Shown: positions 30,352 to 37,572 of the stretch, piece after piece
Position numbering within the stretch: position 1 is the stretch's first letter
How the letters are laid out: every line of letters begins with the position of its first letter
Virus record (IMG/VR): IMGVR_UViG_3300032007_000013
Strand: one strand, 5' to 3'
Length of the DNA: 53,605 nucleotides
From: a virus
Lineage: Duplodnaviria; Heunggongvirae; Uroviricota; Caudoviricetes
Position numbers and translations under genes: made by a program
Notes under the pieces: generated by a model
Seen by the model: the letters and a program-made list of their open reading frames with translations, nothing else
Database searches by the model: none
What the model was told of the DNA's origin: nothing

Positions 30352-30465
30352 CATAAAAAATCAAATAACTACTGGTTCGAGTCCTTAGTAACGGCGGTCC
30401 CGAAAGGAAAGAAGCGTAATTGCCCTTCGCCGTAGCAGTTGGTGCTTAGTATTTGATTTTTTATG
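30352..30465 (+). ncRNA. Stem-closed RNA with T-like arm, acceptor-like stem, then D-like arm (permuted tRNA mimic)
   Basis: Perfect 16-bp closing stem; GGTTCGAGTCC; ACGGCG/CGCCGT; TA-GCA-GTTGG-TGC. Confidence 0.5.
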
Positions 30466-31105
30466 AAAGGCAAGAAAGAAAATCTAGCGGTTGGCCATTG
30501 CTATGAGAAGTATTGTCTCCTTATACGTCCGCACTATCAAGTTCAATCGACGATAAAAACCAGGAACTTGTGACTTTCGAGATGGTTGTATAGCTCTTCA
30601 CTGGTTTCAAGAGGAAACCAAAGATGTCCTATATTGTTGTCGTTTATGCATGGTTAGTCCCTACATTAAAAGGAGGAAAACCGGCAACTTAGCTAAGCAG
30701 TTTCGCTTAACTGCCCTGCGGGGAAATAAGCAATTTAAGGGATGCTTTTCTTTATGATTAATCGAGGACGTGTGCGGTGGGAAATGTTTGAGAATCCAAG
30801 AGTTGGGAATGTAGATTAATCACTGATGTAGGAGTTATAGGCCTACGGTCGGCCAAGAGACGATAAACATTGGAGAGTTGCCACCTCTTGAAAAGTGTGG
30901 AGTGGAAATCTTTATATCTGTGCTGATAAGCCATAGGAGACATCCTTAAAGAGTTCCGTTCTTAGACCGACTACAAGGTCTTTGTCGAAATATAGAAAAA
31001 GATGTAGTTAAAGAGGAGTTTGCGTGAGACGTGAGGGGATGCCCGAAGTAGACGAAACGCAGAGGGTTGGTGGCCTCCAAAGAAGTTGACGGACCAAGAC
31101 TTCTA
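30466..31105 (+). ncRNA. ~640-nt structured RNA candidate (GOLLD/ROOL class)
   Basis: GC-rich, no RBS-led ORF, many hairpins, abuts the tRNA cluster. Confidence 0.45.
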
Positions 31106-31108
31106 TAT

Positions 31109-31261
31109 GCCGCTCTAGCTTAACTGGTTAGAGCCCGCGACTTGGAAATATCGTTTAACTGGAAAGACTGCCCGGTGTGTGCTGGGATAATATCAGTTCA
31201 AGTCTGGTTATTTCCGGCAATAATCGCGAGGTTCTGGGTTCGATTCCCAGGGGCGGCACCA
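31109..31261 (+). tRNA. tRNA-Ile (TAT or AAT) interrupted in its anticodon loop by a nested tRNA
   Basis: Acceptor GCCGCTC/GGGCGGC+ACCA; anticodon stem CGCGA/TCGCG split by a 76-nt insert. Confidence 0.8.
31144..31219 (+). tRNA. Nested tRNA-His(GTG)-like gene
   Basis: GGAAATA/TATTTCC acceptor, D arm, GTG in anticodon register, ATCAG-TTCAAGT-CTGGT T arm, ends GGCA. Confidence 0.7.
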
Positions 31262-31386
31262 TTAAAAAAAATTTTTTAGGGCAAAGAAAGAAAAAGTATT
31301 AAAAAAATCTTTCTTTAAAAATACATAAAAATCTTTCATTTGAAAATTTTAAAAAAATATTATATAATATATATGTAAGATAAATA

Positions 31387-31525
31387 AAGACAGAAACAGC
31401 AATTTTAATTTAAAAATGTTATGATTTGAGGAATCCGGTGTTGTAGGTTCGACTCCTGCCTTCCGGTTATAGGACTGGAAGTAGCTCAATCGGTAGAGCA
31501 CGAAAAAACTTTTTAAACTGTCTTG
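31387..31525 (+). ncRNA. ACAGCAA clamp RNA 1, containing a circularly permuted tRNA (YrlA-like topology)
   Basis: AAGACAG/CTGTCTT clamp; T arm 31443-31459, loop-closed acceptor 31460-31481, D arm 31484-31499. Confidence 0.75.
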
Positions 31526-31555
31526 TCATTACTTCGTAATGACGAAGTAATATAT

Positions 31556-31630
31556 GGCTCCGTAGCTCAGAGGTAGAGCGCACGCCTGTTAAGCGTGATG
31601 TCGAGATATCGTAATTCTCCGGAGCCGCCA
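31556..31630 (+). tRNA. tRNA-Asn(GTT)
   Basis: CACGC-CTGTTAA-GCGTG; atypical T-loop ATCGTAA; CCA. Confidence 0.88.
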
Positions 31631-31635
31631 TAAAA

Positions 31636-31916
31636 AATAATGGTAGTAGGCTTAGAAGTAGCCATCTTTAATGAGTAGTGATATGCCGTGTGTGAGTATA
31701 GTTAGTTTGTTGGTAAAGCTACTATGAATGGATAGAGAGAGTCAATTCCAAAGAAAACCAACCTTAAATTAGTCAGTCAAGAACGGTAACGCGGGGAGAA
31801 GCGGCTGTATATCAACCTGCGCAACGTGAAGCTATGGAGCTAATGAAGTTATGCTTGCAAGGGCGGGGCCGACCTAAATGACCAATATACTTTTAGTGTA
31901 ATAACACACCATTATT
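31636..31916 (+). ncRNA. 23S rRNA L11-binding domain (H43/H44) mimic with a ~220-nt insertion
   Basis: GGCTTAGAAGTAGCCATCTTTAATGA ... AGTGTAATAACACA, closed by 9-bp AATAATGGT/ACCATTATT. Confidence 0.7.
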
Positions 31917-33596: not shown

Positions 33597-33675
33597 GGGG
33601 CACGGGACTGCTTGGAGTGGTCGCCTCCCTTGCAAGGAGGATATCAGATGGGTTCGATGCCCATGTGTTCCACCA
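33597..33675 (+). tRNA. tRNA-Ala(TGC)
   Basis: CCTCC-CTTGCAA-GGAGG, CCA. Confidence 0.88.
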
Positions 33676-35518: not shown

Positions 35519-35609
35519 GATATCTTACAGCAAAAAAGTGTAATAAAAAAATATGTGGGTGGTTTGGTATCTTGTTTGACAATCTAAAAAAAATTTGATA
35601 TAATATATT

Positions 35610-35778
35610 TAGACAGTTAGACAGCAATATAATTTAAATAACAAGTTTTATTCAAATACAAAAAGACATGTTTTATTCTCCTTATTTGGTATAAAAGAGA
35701 TTTGATTTTATTGTGATTCTAATTTCATCAAATCTGCCAGTTATATGGAATTATAAAGAAAAGGAATTAACTGTCTAG
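35610..35778 (+). ncRNA. ACAGCAA clamp RNA 4 (multi-hairpin cargo)
   Basis: 10-bp TAGACAGTTA/TAACTGTCTA clamp followed by GACAGCAA; directly after a promoter. Confidence 0.6.
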
Positions 35779-35817
35779 TTTATCTAAAATTATTTAAAAT
35801 TTAAATTATATATAATA

Positions 35818-35913
35818 AAGACACATACAGCAATTAATTTACAAAAGGTTAAAATTGTAGGCTGTATACCTGTGATGAAATGGTTCGAATCCATTAAATA
35901 TTAAAGTGTCTTG
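35818..35913 (+). ncRNA. ACAGCAA clamp RNA 5 (Tyr GTA-like anticodon arm plus T arm, no acceptor stem)
   Basis: AAGACAC/GTGTCTT; AGG-CTGTATA-CCT; ATGG-TTCGAAT-CCAT. Confidence 0.65.
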
Positions 35914-35935
35914 TTATTATTAAGTCTTAAAATAT

Positions 35936-36551
35936 AAATACAAGTTTTGATAACTCAGTGCAGACTATAAGCGACTTATAGGCTGAGAAATACCGAAGTG
36001 AGGCTCGGCACGGAACGAAACAAGGATACTTGTGGATAGTGGACCGCACTTTATATCGTGAGGTATAAAGTGAACCCATGCGGGGAAAGGAAAGGTATTG
36101 TGCTAAAGTTATCGTAATTTAAAATACCCGAGGGCGGGCAGAGTAATAGAAAGCTTTGTTGATAAGACAAAGCCGAATCCAGAAAACCGCGACCGGTGGC
36201 ACGGCGTGAGAGTCTGGAAAAGCCAAACAATCTGTTGAATGTAGTTGAATAGGAGAAATCCTAGTATAACGCCTAACCAGGGTGCGAGTAGGGGAAATCT
36301 ACAAAGGCTCAAATCTTAAAGACTTGAAGATATTATATTATTGATTGGTAAATATAATTAACGATACAATTTCTGAAAGTCCCCTGAAAGTTGTGGGTAA
36401 GCAATCCCACCAAGACGAAAGTTAGCTGTAAGCTAATGTCATAGGAAGCGTCATATCGACGGGTATGAGCTCAGACCTATGGCAGCTTGTGATTGAAAAA
36501 AGTTGAAGGTAATTGGTAGTAGGGGGAAGCCCCATCAAAAAATCTGTATTT
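35936..36551 (+). ncRNA. ~615-nt structured RNA candidate (ROOL/GOLLD class)
   Basis: Ends pair (AAATAC..TTTTGAT with ATCAAAA..GTATTT); GC-rich hairpins; no RBS-led ORF. Confidence 0.55.
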
Positions 36552-36673
36552 ATATTTTAGGACTTAATTAATATGCGAGCGTAAGTTCAATTTTTTGGTC
36601 GAAAGTTCAAAATTATATTATTATAATTTTTATATAAAATGAAAGAAAAAATATAAAAAGAGGTAATATAATT

Positions 36674-37439: not shown

Positions 37440-37572
37440 GGGTGAATATCCAAGTCTCTCAAAGGAACCGGACCGATAACTGAATCTAGTTTTAGGTTTG
37501 ATAACAGCAGCACGGACTATAAATCCGGCGCTATTTAGCTTCGCAGGTATGGAATCCTCGCTTCACCCACCA
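37440..37572 (+). tRNA. tRNA-Tyr(ATA)-like gene with a 44-nt insertion at the anticodon arm
   Basis: GGGTGAA/TTCACCC+ACCA; CCGGAC[insert ending CGGAC]TATAAA-TCCGG; long variable arm. Confidence 0.6.

What the first reader, a model, noticed from the sequence alone, without database searches (positions are those of the whole stretch)
31109..31261. A tRNA nested inside another tRNA's anticodon loop
Seen: an intact outer tRNA whose anticodon loop is interrupted by an exactly 76-nt cloverleaf (31144-31219, GTG anticodon, ends GGCA instead of NCCA). Removing it rejoins CT-TAT-AA (Ile, UAU). Removing it one base earlier gives CT-AAT-AA, also Ile. Inference: ordinary 5' and 3' tRNA processing of the inner tRNA would excise it as an intron, and ligation would give a tRNA-Ile that could read AUA without host lysidine. 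That would couple two tRNAs and gate one on a ligase; it could also hide the anticodon from host nucleases until needed. tRNA introns have been noted in large gut phages; I cannot verify whether this arrangement is described.
Basis: partly seen in the sequence, partly recalled or inferred. Interest (0 to 1): 0.92.

Follow-up and report, generated by a model that had tools for sequence, protein, structure and literature searches.

The report
tRNA-shaped intron splitting phage tRNA-Ile
A rumen jumbo phage's isoleucine tRNA gene is split in the middle of its anticodon by a 76-base insert that is itself tRNA-shaped; the insert is real, kept in several strains and absent from others, and is a further, well-documented example of the unexplained tRNA-shaped introns already noted in large stop-codon-recoded phages.

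Summary
Window 31109-31261 is a tRNA gene split between nucleotides 34 and 35 by exactly 76 nt (31144-31219). That insert passes Rfam's tRNA threshold.

- **Identity of the outer gene.** Six close relatives carry the same gene uninterrupted as tRNA-Ile(UAU). This fixes the junction and rules out the AAU and Pro(UGG) readings.
- **Not an artefact.** The nested form recurs in three further data sets.
- **Conservation of the insert.** In three distinct alleles all variation lies in the inner anticodon-like arm. Its 5-bp stem keeps pairing (C-G, U.G, U-A). Its loop has 6 nt and varies in sequence. The inner element is therefore tRNA-shaped but not a decoding tRNA-His.
- **Other inserts in relatives.** The same gene carries a different CCA-ended tRNA-shaped insert, or an insert with an I-Ssp6803I-like endonuclease gene, at 36|37. 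A tRNA-Gln of the nearest relative holds a third tRNA-shaped insert ending in TCCA.

Best reading (inferred, no RNA evidence): a protein-spliced intron. Its ends are set by tRNA end-processing, with RNase P at the 5' side and a cut after position 76. An Rnl-type ligase, not RtcB, then reseals the anticodon loop.

The kind is already noted in the literature (PMC6784885, PMC13037316). This scan has found it before, in another tRNA of this genome and in other phages. It is a new member of a known but mechanistically unexplained kind.

The parts
31109..31143 (+). 5' exon of the outer tRNA-Ile(UAU): acceptor 5' strand, D arm, anticodon stem 5' strand and loop nucleotides C32 U33 U34
   Evidence: ARAGORN on the joined exons. 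Alignment with six uninterrupted alleles. T at 31121 (D-stem position 13) is unique to this allele; every other allele has C.
31144..31219 (+). 76-nt tRNA-shaped insert (intron) whose ends fall at inner positions +1 and 76
   Evidence: Rfam tRNA 33.7 bits. It is the only copy in the window. It is absent from six relatives and present in X4, L016 and L038. 69 of its 76 positions are invariant in three alleles.
31144..31150 (+). Inner acceptor stem, 5' strand; pairs with 31209-31215
   Evidence: 7 standard pairs, invariant in 3 alleles. The nucleotide at -1 is U (31143).
31153..31168 (+). Inner D arm with the G18 G19 pair of the elbow
   Evidence: Rfam alignment. Invariant in 3 alleles.
31171..31186 (+). 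Inner anticodon-like arm: 5-bp stem closing a 6-nt loop (31176-31181)
   Evidence: ARAGORN calls a 2-nt 'anticodon' and the Rfam alignment shows a 6-nt loop. Pair 30-41 is C-G, U.G or U-A, and pair 31-40 is G.U or A-U. The loop reads UGUGUG, UGUGUA or CCAGUG in the three alleles.
31192..31208 (+). Inner T arm with T-loop TTCAAGT
   Evidence: Rfam alignment. Invariant in 3 alleles.
31216..31219 (+). Inner 3' tail GGCA (positions 73-76); the 3' junction lies directly after it
   Evidence: Sequence. The tail is the same in L016 and L038. The analogous tails are G+CCA in L040 and TCCA in the G001 tRNA-Gln insert.
31220..31261 (+). 3' exon of the outer tRNA-Ile(UAU): A35 U36 A37 A38, anticodon stem 3' strand, T arm, acceptor 3' strand and ACCA
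   Evidence: ARAGORN on the joined exons. Identical to the 3' part of the uninterrupted alleles L010, L014 and L037.

Best explanation
The 76-nt insert is a tRNA-shaped intron in a phage tRNA-Ile(UAU) gene. It does not splice itself.

Proposed path:
1. The gene is transcribed as a 153-nt precursor in which both cloverleaves can form.
2. The inner element keeps the parts of a tRNA that end-processing enzymes recognise: a 7-bp acceptor stem, the T arm, the D-loop/T-loop elbow and a 4-nt 3' tail. It has lost a working anticodon loop.
3. RNase P cuts 5' of inner G+1 (31143|31144), leaving U34 with a 3'-OH.
4. A second endonuclease cuts directly after inner position 76 (31219|31220), leaving A35 with a 5'-phosphate.
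5. The two exon halves stay held together by the outer acceptor and anticodon stems. An ATP-dependent RNA ligase that joins 3'-OH to 5'-phosphate seals the anticodon loop.
6. The product is the same tRNA-Ile(UAU) that relatives encode uninterrupted, and it reads AUA codons.

At the DNA level the intron is an optional, probably mobile element.

Shown: the anatomy, the exact junction, the presence/absence polymorphism, conservation of the inner fold, and recurrence of the same end rule in unrelated inserts.

Inferred: every enzymatic step, and that splicing happens at all.
For: 1. **Exact junction.** Six uninterrupted alleles differ from the nested one by precisely 31144-31219.
2. **Real and recurrent.** The nested form occurs in the source run, in X4, in L016 and in L038.
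3. **Selection on the RNA fold.**
   - All 7 variable positions among three alleles lie in the inner anticodon-like arm.
   - Every cell of the stem stays paired, along the series C-G, U.G, U-A.
   - The acceptor stem, D arm, T arm and tail are invariant.
4. **Exons stay intact in intron-bearing alleles.** No disabling change was found. The outer acceptor pair 5-68 runs C-G (window), U.G (G001), U-A (L040, L041). The T-stem pair runs U-A or C-G.
5. **Same end rule in unrelated inserts.**
   - L040: 88 nt, Rfam tRNA 34.8 bits, ends in CCA, inserted at 36|37.
   - G001 tRNA-Gln: 83 nt, folds as a cloverleaf, ends in TCCA, inserted after U34.
6. **Bona fide mobile-intron traffic at this site.** L041 carries an insert with an I-Ssp6803I-like PD-(D/E)XK endonuclease gene.
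7. **Ligase of the right chemistry.** G001 is about 90% identical to the window. It encodes an Rnl5-type RNA ligase and no RtcB.
8. **Precedent for a cut directly after CCA.** Thermotoga maritima RNase Z and, for some tRNAs, RNase E do this (PMC7479834 introduction).
9. **Other known splicing signals are absent.** There is no self-splicing or self-cleaving RNA family match at E up to 10. G001 has no archaeal-type splicing endonuclease.
10. **Established knowledge used.** RNase P leaves a 3'-OH on the leader, and RNase Z leaves a 5'-phosphate on the trailer.
Against: - **No RNA evidence.** The only RNA data that could be laid were contigs. They cover 30477-31092 and 31590 onward, but nothing across 31102-31263.
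- **The 3' nuclease is unidentified.** A standard RNase Z cut after the discriminator would give a 10-nt loop. The tail here is GGCA, not CCA. G001 encodes no RNase Z-like protein.
- **The ligase evidence is indirect.** Rnl5 ligases are known as sealers of nicks in duplexes, not of anticodon loops. The ligase was found in G001, which lacks this intron. The window's own genome could not be searched.
- **Covariation is thin.** It rests on three alleles, and the shuffle control has no power.
- **High similarity could be recent exchange.** Window and L016 are 94% identical across the nested gene while neighbouring tRNAs are 71-82% identical. This could reflect recent transfer of the allele and not long-term selection.
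- **Lak introns do not fit.** They carry a 5' hairpin and linker ahead of their tRNA-like part, so a simple RNase P model fails there. The L041 insert has no T arm.
Confidence: 0.5

Rival explanations
1. It is a spliced intron, but the cuts are made by a dedicated, still unrecognised phage or host endonuclease that recognises the tRNA-shaped intron. The cuts leave 2',3'-cyclic phosphate and 5'-OH ends. These are then healed and sealed, or joined by a host RtcB.
For: - This phage group holds several non-self-splicing insert types that a pure RNase P model does not explain. Examples are the endonuclease-bearing inserts in L041 and L014, whose ends form a plain helix, and the Lak introns with 5' leaders.
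- No known enzyme is shown to cut after a GGCA tail.
Against: - G001 has no RtcB and no archaeal-type splicing endonuclease.
- No bulge-helix-bulge motif can be drawn at the junctions (sequence).
- The exact coincidence of both junctions with +1 and 76 of a tRNA fold, in three unrelated inserts, is most simply explained by enzymes that measure tRNA ends.
Confidence: 0.2
2. It is not spliced. The insert is a selfish or protective DNA element that has inactivated this copy of tRNA-Ile(UAU). It persists because it destroys the target site of homing endonucleases that attack the anticodon-arm DNA of this gene, or simply because the insertion is recent.
For: - Presence or absence varies between near-identical strains. 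L037 and L038 share identical exons and an identical neighbouring protein.
- Distribution does not follow overall relatedness. The window is closer to the uninterrupted L010, L014 and G001 (about 90-93% identity) than to the nested L016 (67-87%).
- A homing-endonuclease-bearing insert occupies the same anticodon loop in L041.
- No spliced RNA was seen.
Against: - Substitutions in the inner arm preserve RNA pairing, which a purely DNA-level element would not require.
- Exons show no disabling change in any of five intron-bearing alleles.
- AUA is a common codon, at 18-22 per 1000, and no other AUA-reading tRNA was identified in the window.
- Protection of the DNA site and RNA splicing are not mutually exclusive.
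Confidence: 0.2
3. Two tRNAs come from one gene. The inner element is itself a working decoding tRNA, released by ordinary processing, and the outer tRNA is produced as well.
For: - The inner element passes Rfam's tRNA threshold and has all four arms.
- Both papers word the idea this way: the intron 'may encode a tRNA' (PMC6784885, PMC13037316).
Against: - The loop has 6 nt, and this register is the one kept by the compensatory changes.
- The loop sequence differs between alleles, so no anticodon is conserved.
- The tail is GGCA, the nucleotide at -1 is U and the discriminator is G. The bacterial tRNA-His identity pair G-1:C73 is therefore absent (sequence).
- The two other tRNA-shaped inserts also have aberrant anticodon regions.
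Confidence: 0.05
4. The unspliced composite RNA is the functional product, for example as a decoy for host tRNA-targeting nucleases or tRNA-binding factors.
For: - The island is full of tRNA mimics, including a YrlA-like RNA at 31414-31534.
- Both folds are conserved.
Against: - There is no direct evidence.
- It does not explain why both insert ends coincide with tRNA positions +1 and 76.
- It does not explain why close relatives do well with the plain tRNA-Ile(UAU).
Confidence: 0.05

Closest known systems
'Enigmatic' tRNA introns of Lak megaphages (Devoto et al. 2019, PMC6784885, Fig. 4 and Table S6), and the later note that tRNA introns of alternatively coded jumbo phages 'could encode another tRNA' (PMC13037316, 2026)
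   Same: - The host gene is a tRNA of a large, stop-codon-recoded gut phage.
- The insert lies in the anticodon loop and is too short for a group I intron.
- It contains a tRNA-like fold that Rfam recognises.
- It is present in some strains and absent from others, and is almost identical wherever present.
- No mechanism is known.
   Different: - Lak introns (79-114 nt) start with a small hairpin and an AAATTAAA-like linker, and the tRNA-like part is only their 3' portion. Here the tRNA-shaped element is the whole intron.
- Here the intron runs from +1 to a 4-nt tail ending at position 76.
- It sits inside the anticodon (34|35), not after it.
- The phage lineage is different: a roughly 240-kb rumen phage with about 31-34% G+C.
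Group I introns in bacterial and phage tRNA anticodon loops, including the tRNA-fMet intron of Synechocystis that encodes the PD-(D/E)XK homing endonuclease I-Ssp6803I (PDB 2ost)
   Same: - Both are anticodon-loop insertions that are optional between strains.
- The classic tRNA-Leu(UAA) intron also lies between positions 34 and 35 (own knowledge).
- A relative (L041) carries an I-Ssp6803I-like gene in an insert in this same tRNA-Ile.
   Different: - At 76 nt there is no room for a catalytic core, and no group I match appears at E up to 10.
- Even the 484-nt L041 insert has only 18 and 22 non-coding nucleotides around its gene, and no group I match.
Archaeal and eukaryal protein-spliced tRNA introns (bulge-helix-bulge motif, EndA/Sen endonuclease, RtcB or Trl1 ligase)
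   Same: - Both are short introns in the anticodon loop that are removed by proteins and resealed by a ligase.
- Eukaryal tRNA-Ile(UAU) genes carry introns (own knowledge).
   Different: - No bulge-helix-bulge motif can be drawn here.
- The position is 34|35, not 37|38.
- The related phage has no EndA-family gene and no RtcB.
- The predicted end chemistry is 3'-OH and 5'-phosphate, not cyclic phosphate and 5'-OH.
tRNA-like processing signals that recruit RNase P and RNase Z outside tRNA genes (mitochondrial tRNA punctuation; the MALAT1 mascRNA)
   Same: A tRNA-shaped module embedded in a longer RNA defines both cleavage sites through the ordinary tRNA end-processing enzymes (own knowledge).
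   Different: In those systems the flanking pieces are not rejoined. Here the flanks are two halves of another tRNA and would need ligation.
Phage T4 anticodon-loop repair (Pnk plus Rnl1)
   Same: A phage-encoded ATP-dependent ligase reseals a tRNA broken in the anticodon loop (own knowledge). The related phage G001 encodes an ATP-dependent RNA ligase.
   Different: - The ligase here is Rnl5-type (N-terminal OB domain plus nucleotidyltransferase; PDB 5cot, E 4e-26), not Rnl1.
- The break would come from programmed processing, not from a host defence nuclease.
- No end healing would be needed.

Membership tests
tRNA (Rfam RF00005): inner element | Cloverleaf scoring above the family's gathering score | tested here: met
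   33.7 bits against a gathering score of 29. The L038 allele scores 31.7 bits.
tRNA (decoding): inner element | 7-nt anticodon loop with a conserved anticodon | tested here: not met
   The loop has 6 nt. The stem register is supported by pair-preserving changes. The loop reads UGUGUG, UGUGUA or CCAGUG.
   The tail is GGCA, the nucleotide at -1 is U and the discriminator is G.
tRNA-Ile(UAU): outer gene | The joined exons fold as a canonical tRNA with anticodon UAU | tested here: met
   ARAGORN calls tRNA-Ile(TAT), 77 nt. The cloverleaf evaluates to -29.1 kcal/mol.
tRNA-Ile(UAU): outer gene | Orthology to uninterrupted tRNA-Ile(UAU) genes at the same locus in relatives | tested here: met
   G001, L010, L011, L012, L014 and L037 are syntenic, and their exons differ at 0 to about 8 positions.
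tRNA-Ile(UAU): outer gene | Mature, ligated and aminoacylated RNA is produced | not testable with these tools
   Only contig-level RNA data were available, and they do not cover the gene.
Group I intron | Catalytic core (P3-P9), typically 200 nt or more, recognisable by covariance model | tested here: not met
   The insert is 76 nt. There is no intron or ribozyme family match at E up to 10 in 30800-31700.
Bulge-helix-bulge (archaeal/eukaryal) tRNA intron | Two 3-nt bulges holding the splice sites, separated by a 4-bp helix; canonical site 37|38 | tested here: not met
   By inspection: the 5' site abuts a 7-bp helix. The 3' site lies in an 8-nt single strand (GGCA and AUAA). The site is 34|35.
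Bulge-helix-bulge (archaeal/eukaryal) tRNA intron | EndA/Sen-family endonuclease available | tested here: inconclusive
   There is no PF01974 match in the complete relative G001. The window's own genome and the host could not be searched.
tRNA-containing introns of recoded jumbo phages and megaphages (PMC6784885; PMC13037316) | Insert in the anticodon loop of a phage tRNA, in a large phage that uses an alternative code | tested here: met
   The insert lies at 34|35. The relative G001 is 239.6 kb and about 90% identical to the window. TAG occurs inside long open frames at 6-13 per 1000 codons. Earlier notes report TAG read as Gln in this genome.
tRNA-containing introns of recoded jumbo phages and megaphages (PMC6784885; PMC13037316) | The intron holds a tRNA-like fold that Rfam recognises | tested here: met
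tRNA-containing introns of recoded jumbo phages and megaphages (PMC6784885; PMC13037316) | Optional between strains, and nearly identical wherever present | tested here: met
   There are four data sets with the insert and six alleles without it. The three insert alleles are 92-95% identical to one another.
tRNA-containing introns of recoded jumbo phages and megaphages (PMC6784885; PMC13037316) | Lak-type 5' hairpin plus A/T-rich linker ahead of the tRNA-like part | tested here: not met
   The insert begins with inner G+1. Lak sequences are in Table S6.

The most novel reading that the evidence does not exclude
Bacteria and their large phages have a general, undescribed protein-only tRNA splicing route. 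The intron is a tRNA look-alike. RNase P and an endonuclease that cuts after position 76 release it. An Rnl-type ligase reseals the anticodon loop. Several unrelated families of such introns move between phage tRNA genes and compete with homing-endonuclease-bearing inserts for the same anticodon-loop sites. This nested tRNA-Ile would be a clean, full-length model substrate for showing it.
Probability: 0.35. Interest if true: 0.85.

Novelty: new member of a known kind. Interest (0 to 1): 0.6.

Why it matters
Textbooks give bacterial-type tRNA genes only self-splicing group I introns. Protein-dependent tRNA splicing is treated as a trait of archaea and eukaryotes.

Short tRNA-shaped inserts in phage tRNAs have been listed twice in metagenomic papers, but nobody has explained them. 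This locus offers an unusually clean test case:

- The intron is a complete 76-nt cloverleaf with no extra sequence.
- The spliced product is defined exactly by natural uninterrupted alleles.
- An exon base unique to this allele (T at 31121) tells spliced RNA apart from DNA of intron-less strains.
- Natural variants show which part of the intron is free to change.

If the proposed route holds, ordinary tRNA end-processing plus an RNA-repair ligase makes up a third way of splicing tRNAs. That would also give phage RNA ligases a housekeeping job beyond repairing damage from host defence. It would explain why gene finders under-count tRNAs in large phages: here the default ARAGORN run and Rfam both miss the tRNA-Ile.

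Tried and rejected
1. **Misassembly or chimera: rejected.** An independent assembly of the source run and three other data sets hold the same junctions.
2. **ARAGORN's intron-mode reading: rejected.** It proposed tRNA-Pro(TGG) with a 76-nt intron at the canonical site. The uninterrupted alleles rule it out.
3. **The AAU junction: rejected** for the same reason.
4. **Self-splicing or self-cleaving RNA: rejected.** No Rfam family matches at E up to 10.
5. **A second copy or free-standing source of the inner element: not found.**
   - None in the window at up to 3 mismatches.
   - None in the complete relative G001 or in any fetched locus.
   - None in IMG/VR by exact patterns.
   - The closest phage tRNAs are only 48-49 of 76 identical.
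6. **GenBank phages: nothing related.** Only short tRNA T-arm matches to Microbacterium phages appeared.
7. **IMG/VR scans: nothing new.** Scans for exon patterns, for the two other insert types and for the predicted spliced tRNA-Gln junction returned only G001 or nothing.
8. **GTDB genome scan: uninformative.** The 3' exon pattern hit only unrelated Bradyrhizobium and Streptomyces-group tRNAs.
9. **RNA evidence: none obtained.**
   - Two metatranscriptome runs of one sample were laid as contigs.
   - They cover the upstream RNA (30477-31092) and 31590 onward.
   - Nothing covers the nested gene, and no joint across 31144-31219 was seen.
   - This is no evidence either way, because tRNAs are poorly captured and contigs cannot show ends.
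10. **Further contigs: too short or unavailable.** Those reached through the neighbouring 90-aa protein did not extend to the tRNA or had no DNA.
11. **ARAGORN intron-mode call at 35550-35903: false positive.** The 'tRNA-Arg with 260-nt intron' is AT-rich and mismatched.
12. **Rnl1 family search in G001: uninformative.** The control genomes did not match either.
13. **Shuffle control on the three-allele alignment: no power**.
Full report
**1. What is in the sequence**

The window is an AT-rich (34% G+C) stretch of a large phage with about 33 tRNA genes. At 31109-31261 the sequence reads as a tRNA whose anticodon loop is interrupted.

- 31109-31143 gives the acceptor 5' strand, the D arm, the anticodon stem 5' strand and loop nucleotides C32 U33 U34.
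- 31220-31261 gives A35 U36 A37 A38, the stem 3' strand, the T arm, the acceptor 3' strand and ACCA.
- The 76 nt between them (31144-31219) form a cloverleaf of their own.
  - It has a 7-bp acceptor stem.
  - Its D arm carries the GG of the elbow.
  - Its T arm has T-loop TTCAAGT.
  - Its 3' tail is GGCA.

Rfam's tRNA model scores the inner element at 33.7 bits, above the gathering score of 29. ARAGORN also calls it a tRNA but reports a two-letter 'anticodon', which means a 6-nt loop. Both the default ARAGORN run and Rfam miss the outer gene altogether.

Removing 31144-31219 gives a 77-nt sequence that ARAGORN calls tRNA-Ile(TAT). The double cloverleaf is a legal fold of the 153-nt precursor at -43.5 kcal/mol. 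It is not the nearest-neighbour optimum of -55.5, which is usual for tRNAs.

**2. Which junction is right**

Sequence alone allows several 76-nt deletions that leave a 7-nt loop:
- Ile(UAU);
- Ile(AAU);
- Thr(UGU);
- Pro(UGG), which ARAGORN's intron mode prefers.

Relatives settle the question. The nearest held virus record, G001, is a 239,565-bp IMG/VR genome rated complete. It is about 90% identical to the window and colinear with it. At the same place it has an uninterrupted tRNA-Ile(TAT).

A metagenome scan with a 3'-exon pattern, and contigs reached through a neighbouring 90-aa protein, gave five more uninterrupted alleles: L010, L011, L012, L014 and L037. In the alignment the gap is exactly 31144-31219, between U34 and A35. 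The insert therefore lies inside the anticodon, and the spliced product, if made, is tRNA-Ile(UAU).

**3. It is real and recurrent**

- Logan's independent assembly of the probable source run spans 30400-31367 without a difference.
- A contig from another study (X4) spans 31105-31367 with two differences and no gaps. Its flanks differ from the window by 4-15%.
- Two further metagenome contigs carry the nested form.
  - L016 is a syntenic but clearly diverged phage. Its neighbouring genes are 67-87% identical to the window's, and most neighbouring tRNAs are 71-82% identical.
  - L038 shares identical exons and an identical neighbouring protein with the uninterrupted L037.
- All samples are ruminant gut metagenomes.

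**4. What the variation says**

The three distinct insert alleles differ at 7 of 76 positions, and all 7 lie in the inner anticodon-like arm.

- In the register with a 5-bp stem and 6-nt loop, every cell stays paired.
- Pair 30-41 runs C-G, U.G, U-A, and pair 31-40 runs G.U, A-U.
- The loop reads UGUGUG, UGUGUA or CCAGUG.

The 'anticodon' would become CAG in L038. Three alleles give no statistical power, and the shuffle control says so.

The pattern is still coherent. The parts of a tRNA that end-processing enzymes read (acceptor stem, T arm, elbow, tail) are frozen. The arm is kept as a helix, and its loop is free to change.

The inner element also lacks the bacterial tRNA-His marks, since -1 is U and the discriminator is G, and it lacks CCA. 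It is tRNA-shaped but not a decoding tRNA.

The outer exons show no disabling change in any intron-bearing allele.
- Acceptor pair 5-68 runs C-G in the window, U.G in G001 and U-A in L040 and L041.
- One T-stem pair is U-A or C-G.

**5. Caveat on conservation**

Window and L016 are 94% identical over the nested gene, although most neighbouring tRNAs are far more diverged. The window is also closer overall to uninterrupted genomes than to L016.

So the intron's distribution does not follow genome relatedness. Either the intron-bearing allele moves by recombination or homing, or the intron is lost precisely and repeatedly. Part of the similarity may therefore reflect recent exchange, not long-term purifying selection.

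**6. The same gene and the same island hold other inserts**

- **L040.** The tRNA-Ile(UAU) is split at 36|37 by an unrelated 88-nt element.
  - It scores 34.8 bits on the tRNA model.
  - It has an 8-bp terminal helix, or 7 bp plus a discriminator.
  - It has T-loop TTCGAAT and ends in CCA.
- **L041.** This contig comes from the same metagenome and has the same exons. The gene is split at 36|37 by 484 nt.
  - Of those, 444 nt encode a PD-(D/E)XK endonuclease (PF11645, 102 bits).
  - Its closest solved structure is 2ost, the tRNA-intron homing endonuclease I-Ssp6803I, at E 1.7e-7.
  - Only 18 and 22 non-coding nucleotides flank the gene, and no group I model matches.
  - The two ends and the anticodon loop can form one continuous helix, with the two junctions staggered by 3 bp (sequence).
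- **L014.** A homologous endonuclease gene (33% identity) interrupts tRNA-Ala(TGC). The same tRNA is intact in the window at 33597-33675.
- **G001.** A tRNA that Rfam scores at 48.6 bits has an 83-nt insert after U34.
  - The insert folds as a cloverleaf and ends in TCCA.
  - The joined loop would read UUG (Gln).
  - No uninterrupted allele was found, so this junction is inferred.
- **Earlier notes of this scan** report two more cases in this same genome, just beyond the window. One is a suppressor tRNA split by a 49-nt mini-tRNA and the other is a group I intron in tRNA-Leu(UAA) (not checked here).

In three unrelated tRNA-shaped inserts, the 5' junction lies at the base of the terminal helix. 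The 3' junction lies directly after the last base of an NCCA-like tail.

**7. How it most likely works**

The end rule is the geometry of a mature tRNA. The simplest reading has the cell's tRNA end-processing enzymes define the intron.

- **5' cut.** RNase P would cut 5' of inner +1, with U at -1.
- **3' cut.** A second endonuclease would cut after position 76.
- **End chemistry.** By established chemistry, RNase P leaves a 3'-OH on the upstream piece. RNase Z-type enzymes leave a 5'-phosphate on the downstream piece. The exon halves would then be direct substrates for an ATP-dependent RNA ligase and not for RtcB.
- **Ligase in the relative.** G001 has no RtcB but encodes an Rnl5-type ligase. 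It has an OB domain plus a nucleotidyltransferase domain, and it matches the Naegleria ligase 5cot at E 4e-26.
- **What is missing in G001.** It has no RNase Z-like, EndA-like or CCA-adding enzyme. The cuts would therefore be made by host enzymes or by unrecognised phage proteins.
- **Precedent for the 3' cut.** A standard RNase Z cut after the discriminator would leave GCA on the 3' exon and give a 10-nt loop. Endonucleolytic cutting right after CCA does have precedents, in Thermotoga maritima RNase Z and, for some tRNAs, RNase E (PMC7479834).

None of these steps is shown here. The RNA data that could be laid were contigs that do not cover the gene.

I put the general statement, a spliced tRNA-shaped intron processed in this way, at about 0.5. 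The remainder is spread over four rivals:
- a dedicated unknown nuclease with other end chemistry;
- a non-spliced selfish or protective insertion;
- a functional unspliced composite RNA;
- a working inner tRNA.

**8. Why an intron here**

AUA is frequent in these genomes at 18-22 per 1000 codons. The window's other Ile tRNA has anticodon GAU. A tRNA-Ile(UAU) is therefore useful, and relatives keep it intact.

The anticodon-arm DNA of this gene is evidently a target of homing elements, as L041 shows. An insert that splits the site would protect it from such endonucleases, provided the RNA can still be repaired by splicing. This is inference. It is compatible with both the best explanation and the selfish-element rival.

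**9. Comparison with what is known**

- Devoto et al. 2019 (PMC6784885) reported 'enigmatic' introns in Lak megaphage tRNAs.
  - One of them 'itself may encode a tRNA'.
  - Excision points were inferred from intron-less alleles, and sequences were identical across cohorts.
- A 2026 survey (PMC13037316) states that tRNA introns occur in 77% of alternatively coded jumbo phages and 'could encode another tRNA'.
- I found no paper that proposes or tests a mechanism.
- This scan has met the same kind of element before, in another tRNA of this genome and in several other phage genomes.

The arrangement is therefore not new as an observation. This locus differs from the Lak cases in three ways:
- the tRNA-shaped element is the whole intron, with no leader hairpin;
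- it is a full four-arm cloverleaf;
- it sits inside the anticodon.

It fails the defining features of group I introns and of bulge-helix-bulge introns (see the membership table).

**10. Verdict**

The processing-plus-ligation idea fits the anatomy. The tRNA-His reading, the AAU alternative and the RtcB pairing do not.
- Novelty: a new member of a known but unexplained kind.
- Interest is moderate to high. The locus gives an exact, testable substrate for an open question, but the class has been noted before and no RNA evidence was obtained.

Noticed in passing
window 31414-31534: Match to Rfam YrlA (Y RNA-like, a permuted tRNA mimic) at 36.8 bits, E 3e-6. This is below the gathering score of 69. 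It lies 150 nt downstream of the nested tRNA.
   Followed up: no
window 35930-36553: Full-length ROOL RNA (RF03087) at 292.5 bits inside the tRNA island.
   Followed up: no
L031:19127-19283 (G001 199127-199283): A second nested tRNA in the closest relative. The outer tRNA (Rfam 48.6 bits, probably Gln UUG) is split after U34 by an 83-nt cloverleaf ending in TCCA. The window has no homologue, and no uninterrupted allele was found.
   Followed up: partly
L040:6143-6230: An unrelated 88-nt CCA-ended tRNA-shaped insert (Rfam 34.8 bits) at position 36|37 of the same tRNA-Ile(UAU) gene in another rumen phage strain.
   Followed up: partly
L041:6368-6851: A 484-nt insert at 36|37 of the same tRNA-Ile gene. 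It carries an I-Ssp6803I-like PD-(D/E)XK endonuclease gene (PF11645, 102 bits). No room is left for a group I core. Its ends plus the anticodon loop form one continuous helix, with the junctions staggered by 3 bp.
   Followed up: partly
L014:9022-9500 versus window 33597-33675: A homologous endonuclease gene (33% identity) interrupts tRNA-Ala(TGC) in L014. The window's tRNA-Ala is intact.
   Followed up: no
window 31106|31109 versus L010:5456-5801, L014 and G001 175100-175434: Relatives with the uninterrupted tRNA-Ile have an extra non-coding element of about 340 nt between the upstream structured RNA and the tRNA. The window lacks it. L016 (nested) keeps at least its 3' end.
   Followed up: no
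window 30477-31092: The GC-rich non-coding block just upstream of the nested tRNA is covered by metatranscriptome contigs of one rumen sample, at 100% identity. The contigs stop 17-33 nt before the tRNA's 5' end.
   Followed up: no
window 31320-31400: An AT-rich motif of about 60 nt containing TATATAATATATA recurs more than 30 times across G001. It collects very high depth in all runs, and is probably the phage's promoter or intergenic repeat.
   Followed up: no
window 37440-37572: A tRNA-Tyr-like gene with anticodon ATA and a 44-nt non-tRNA-like insert flanked by a CGGAC repeat. The region is 91% identical in G001, so the insert is shared.
   Followed up: no
L013, L015, L017-L020: Other rumen contigs with GC-rich flanks carry tRNA-Ile(UAU) genes that have the same anticodon arm as the phage gene. 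They may be hosts or other large phages.
   Followed up: no
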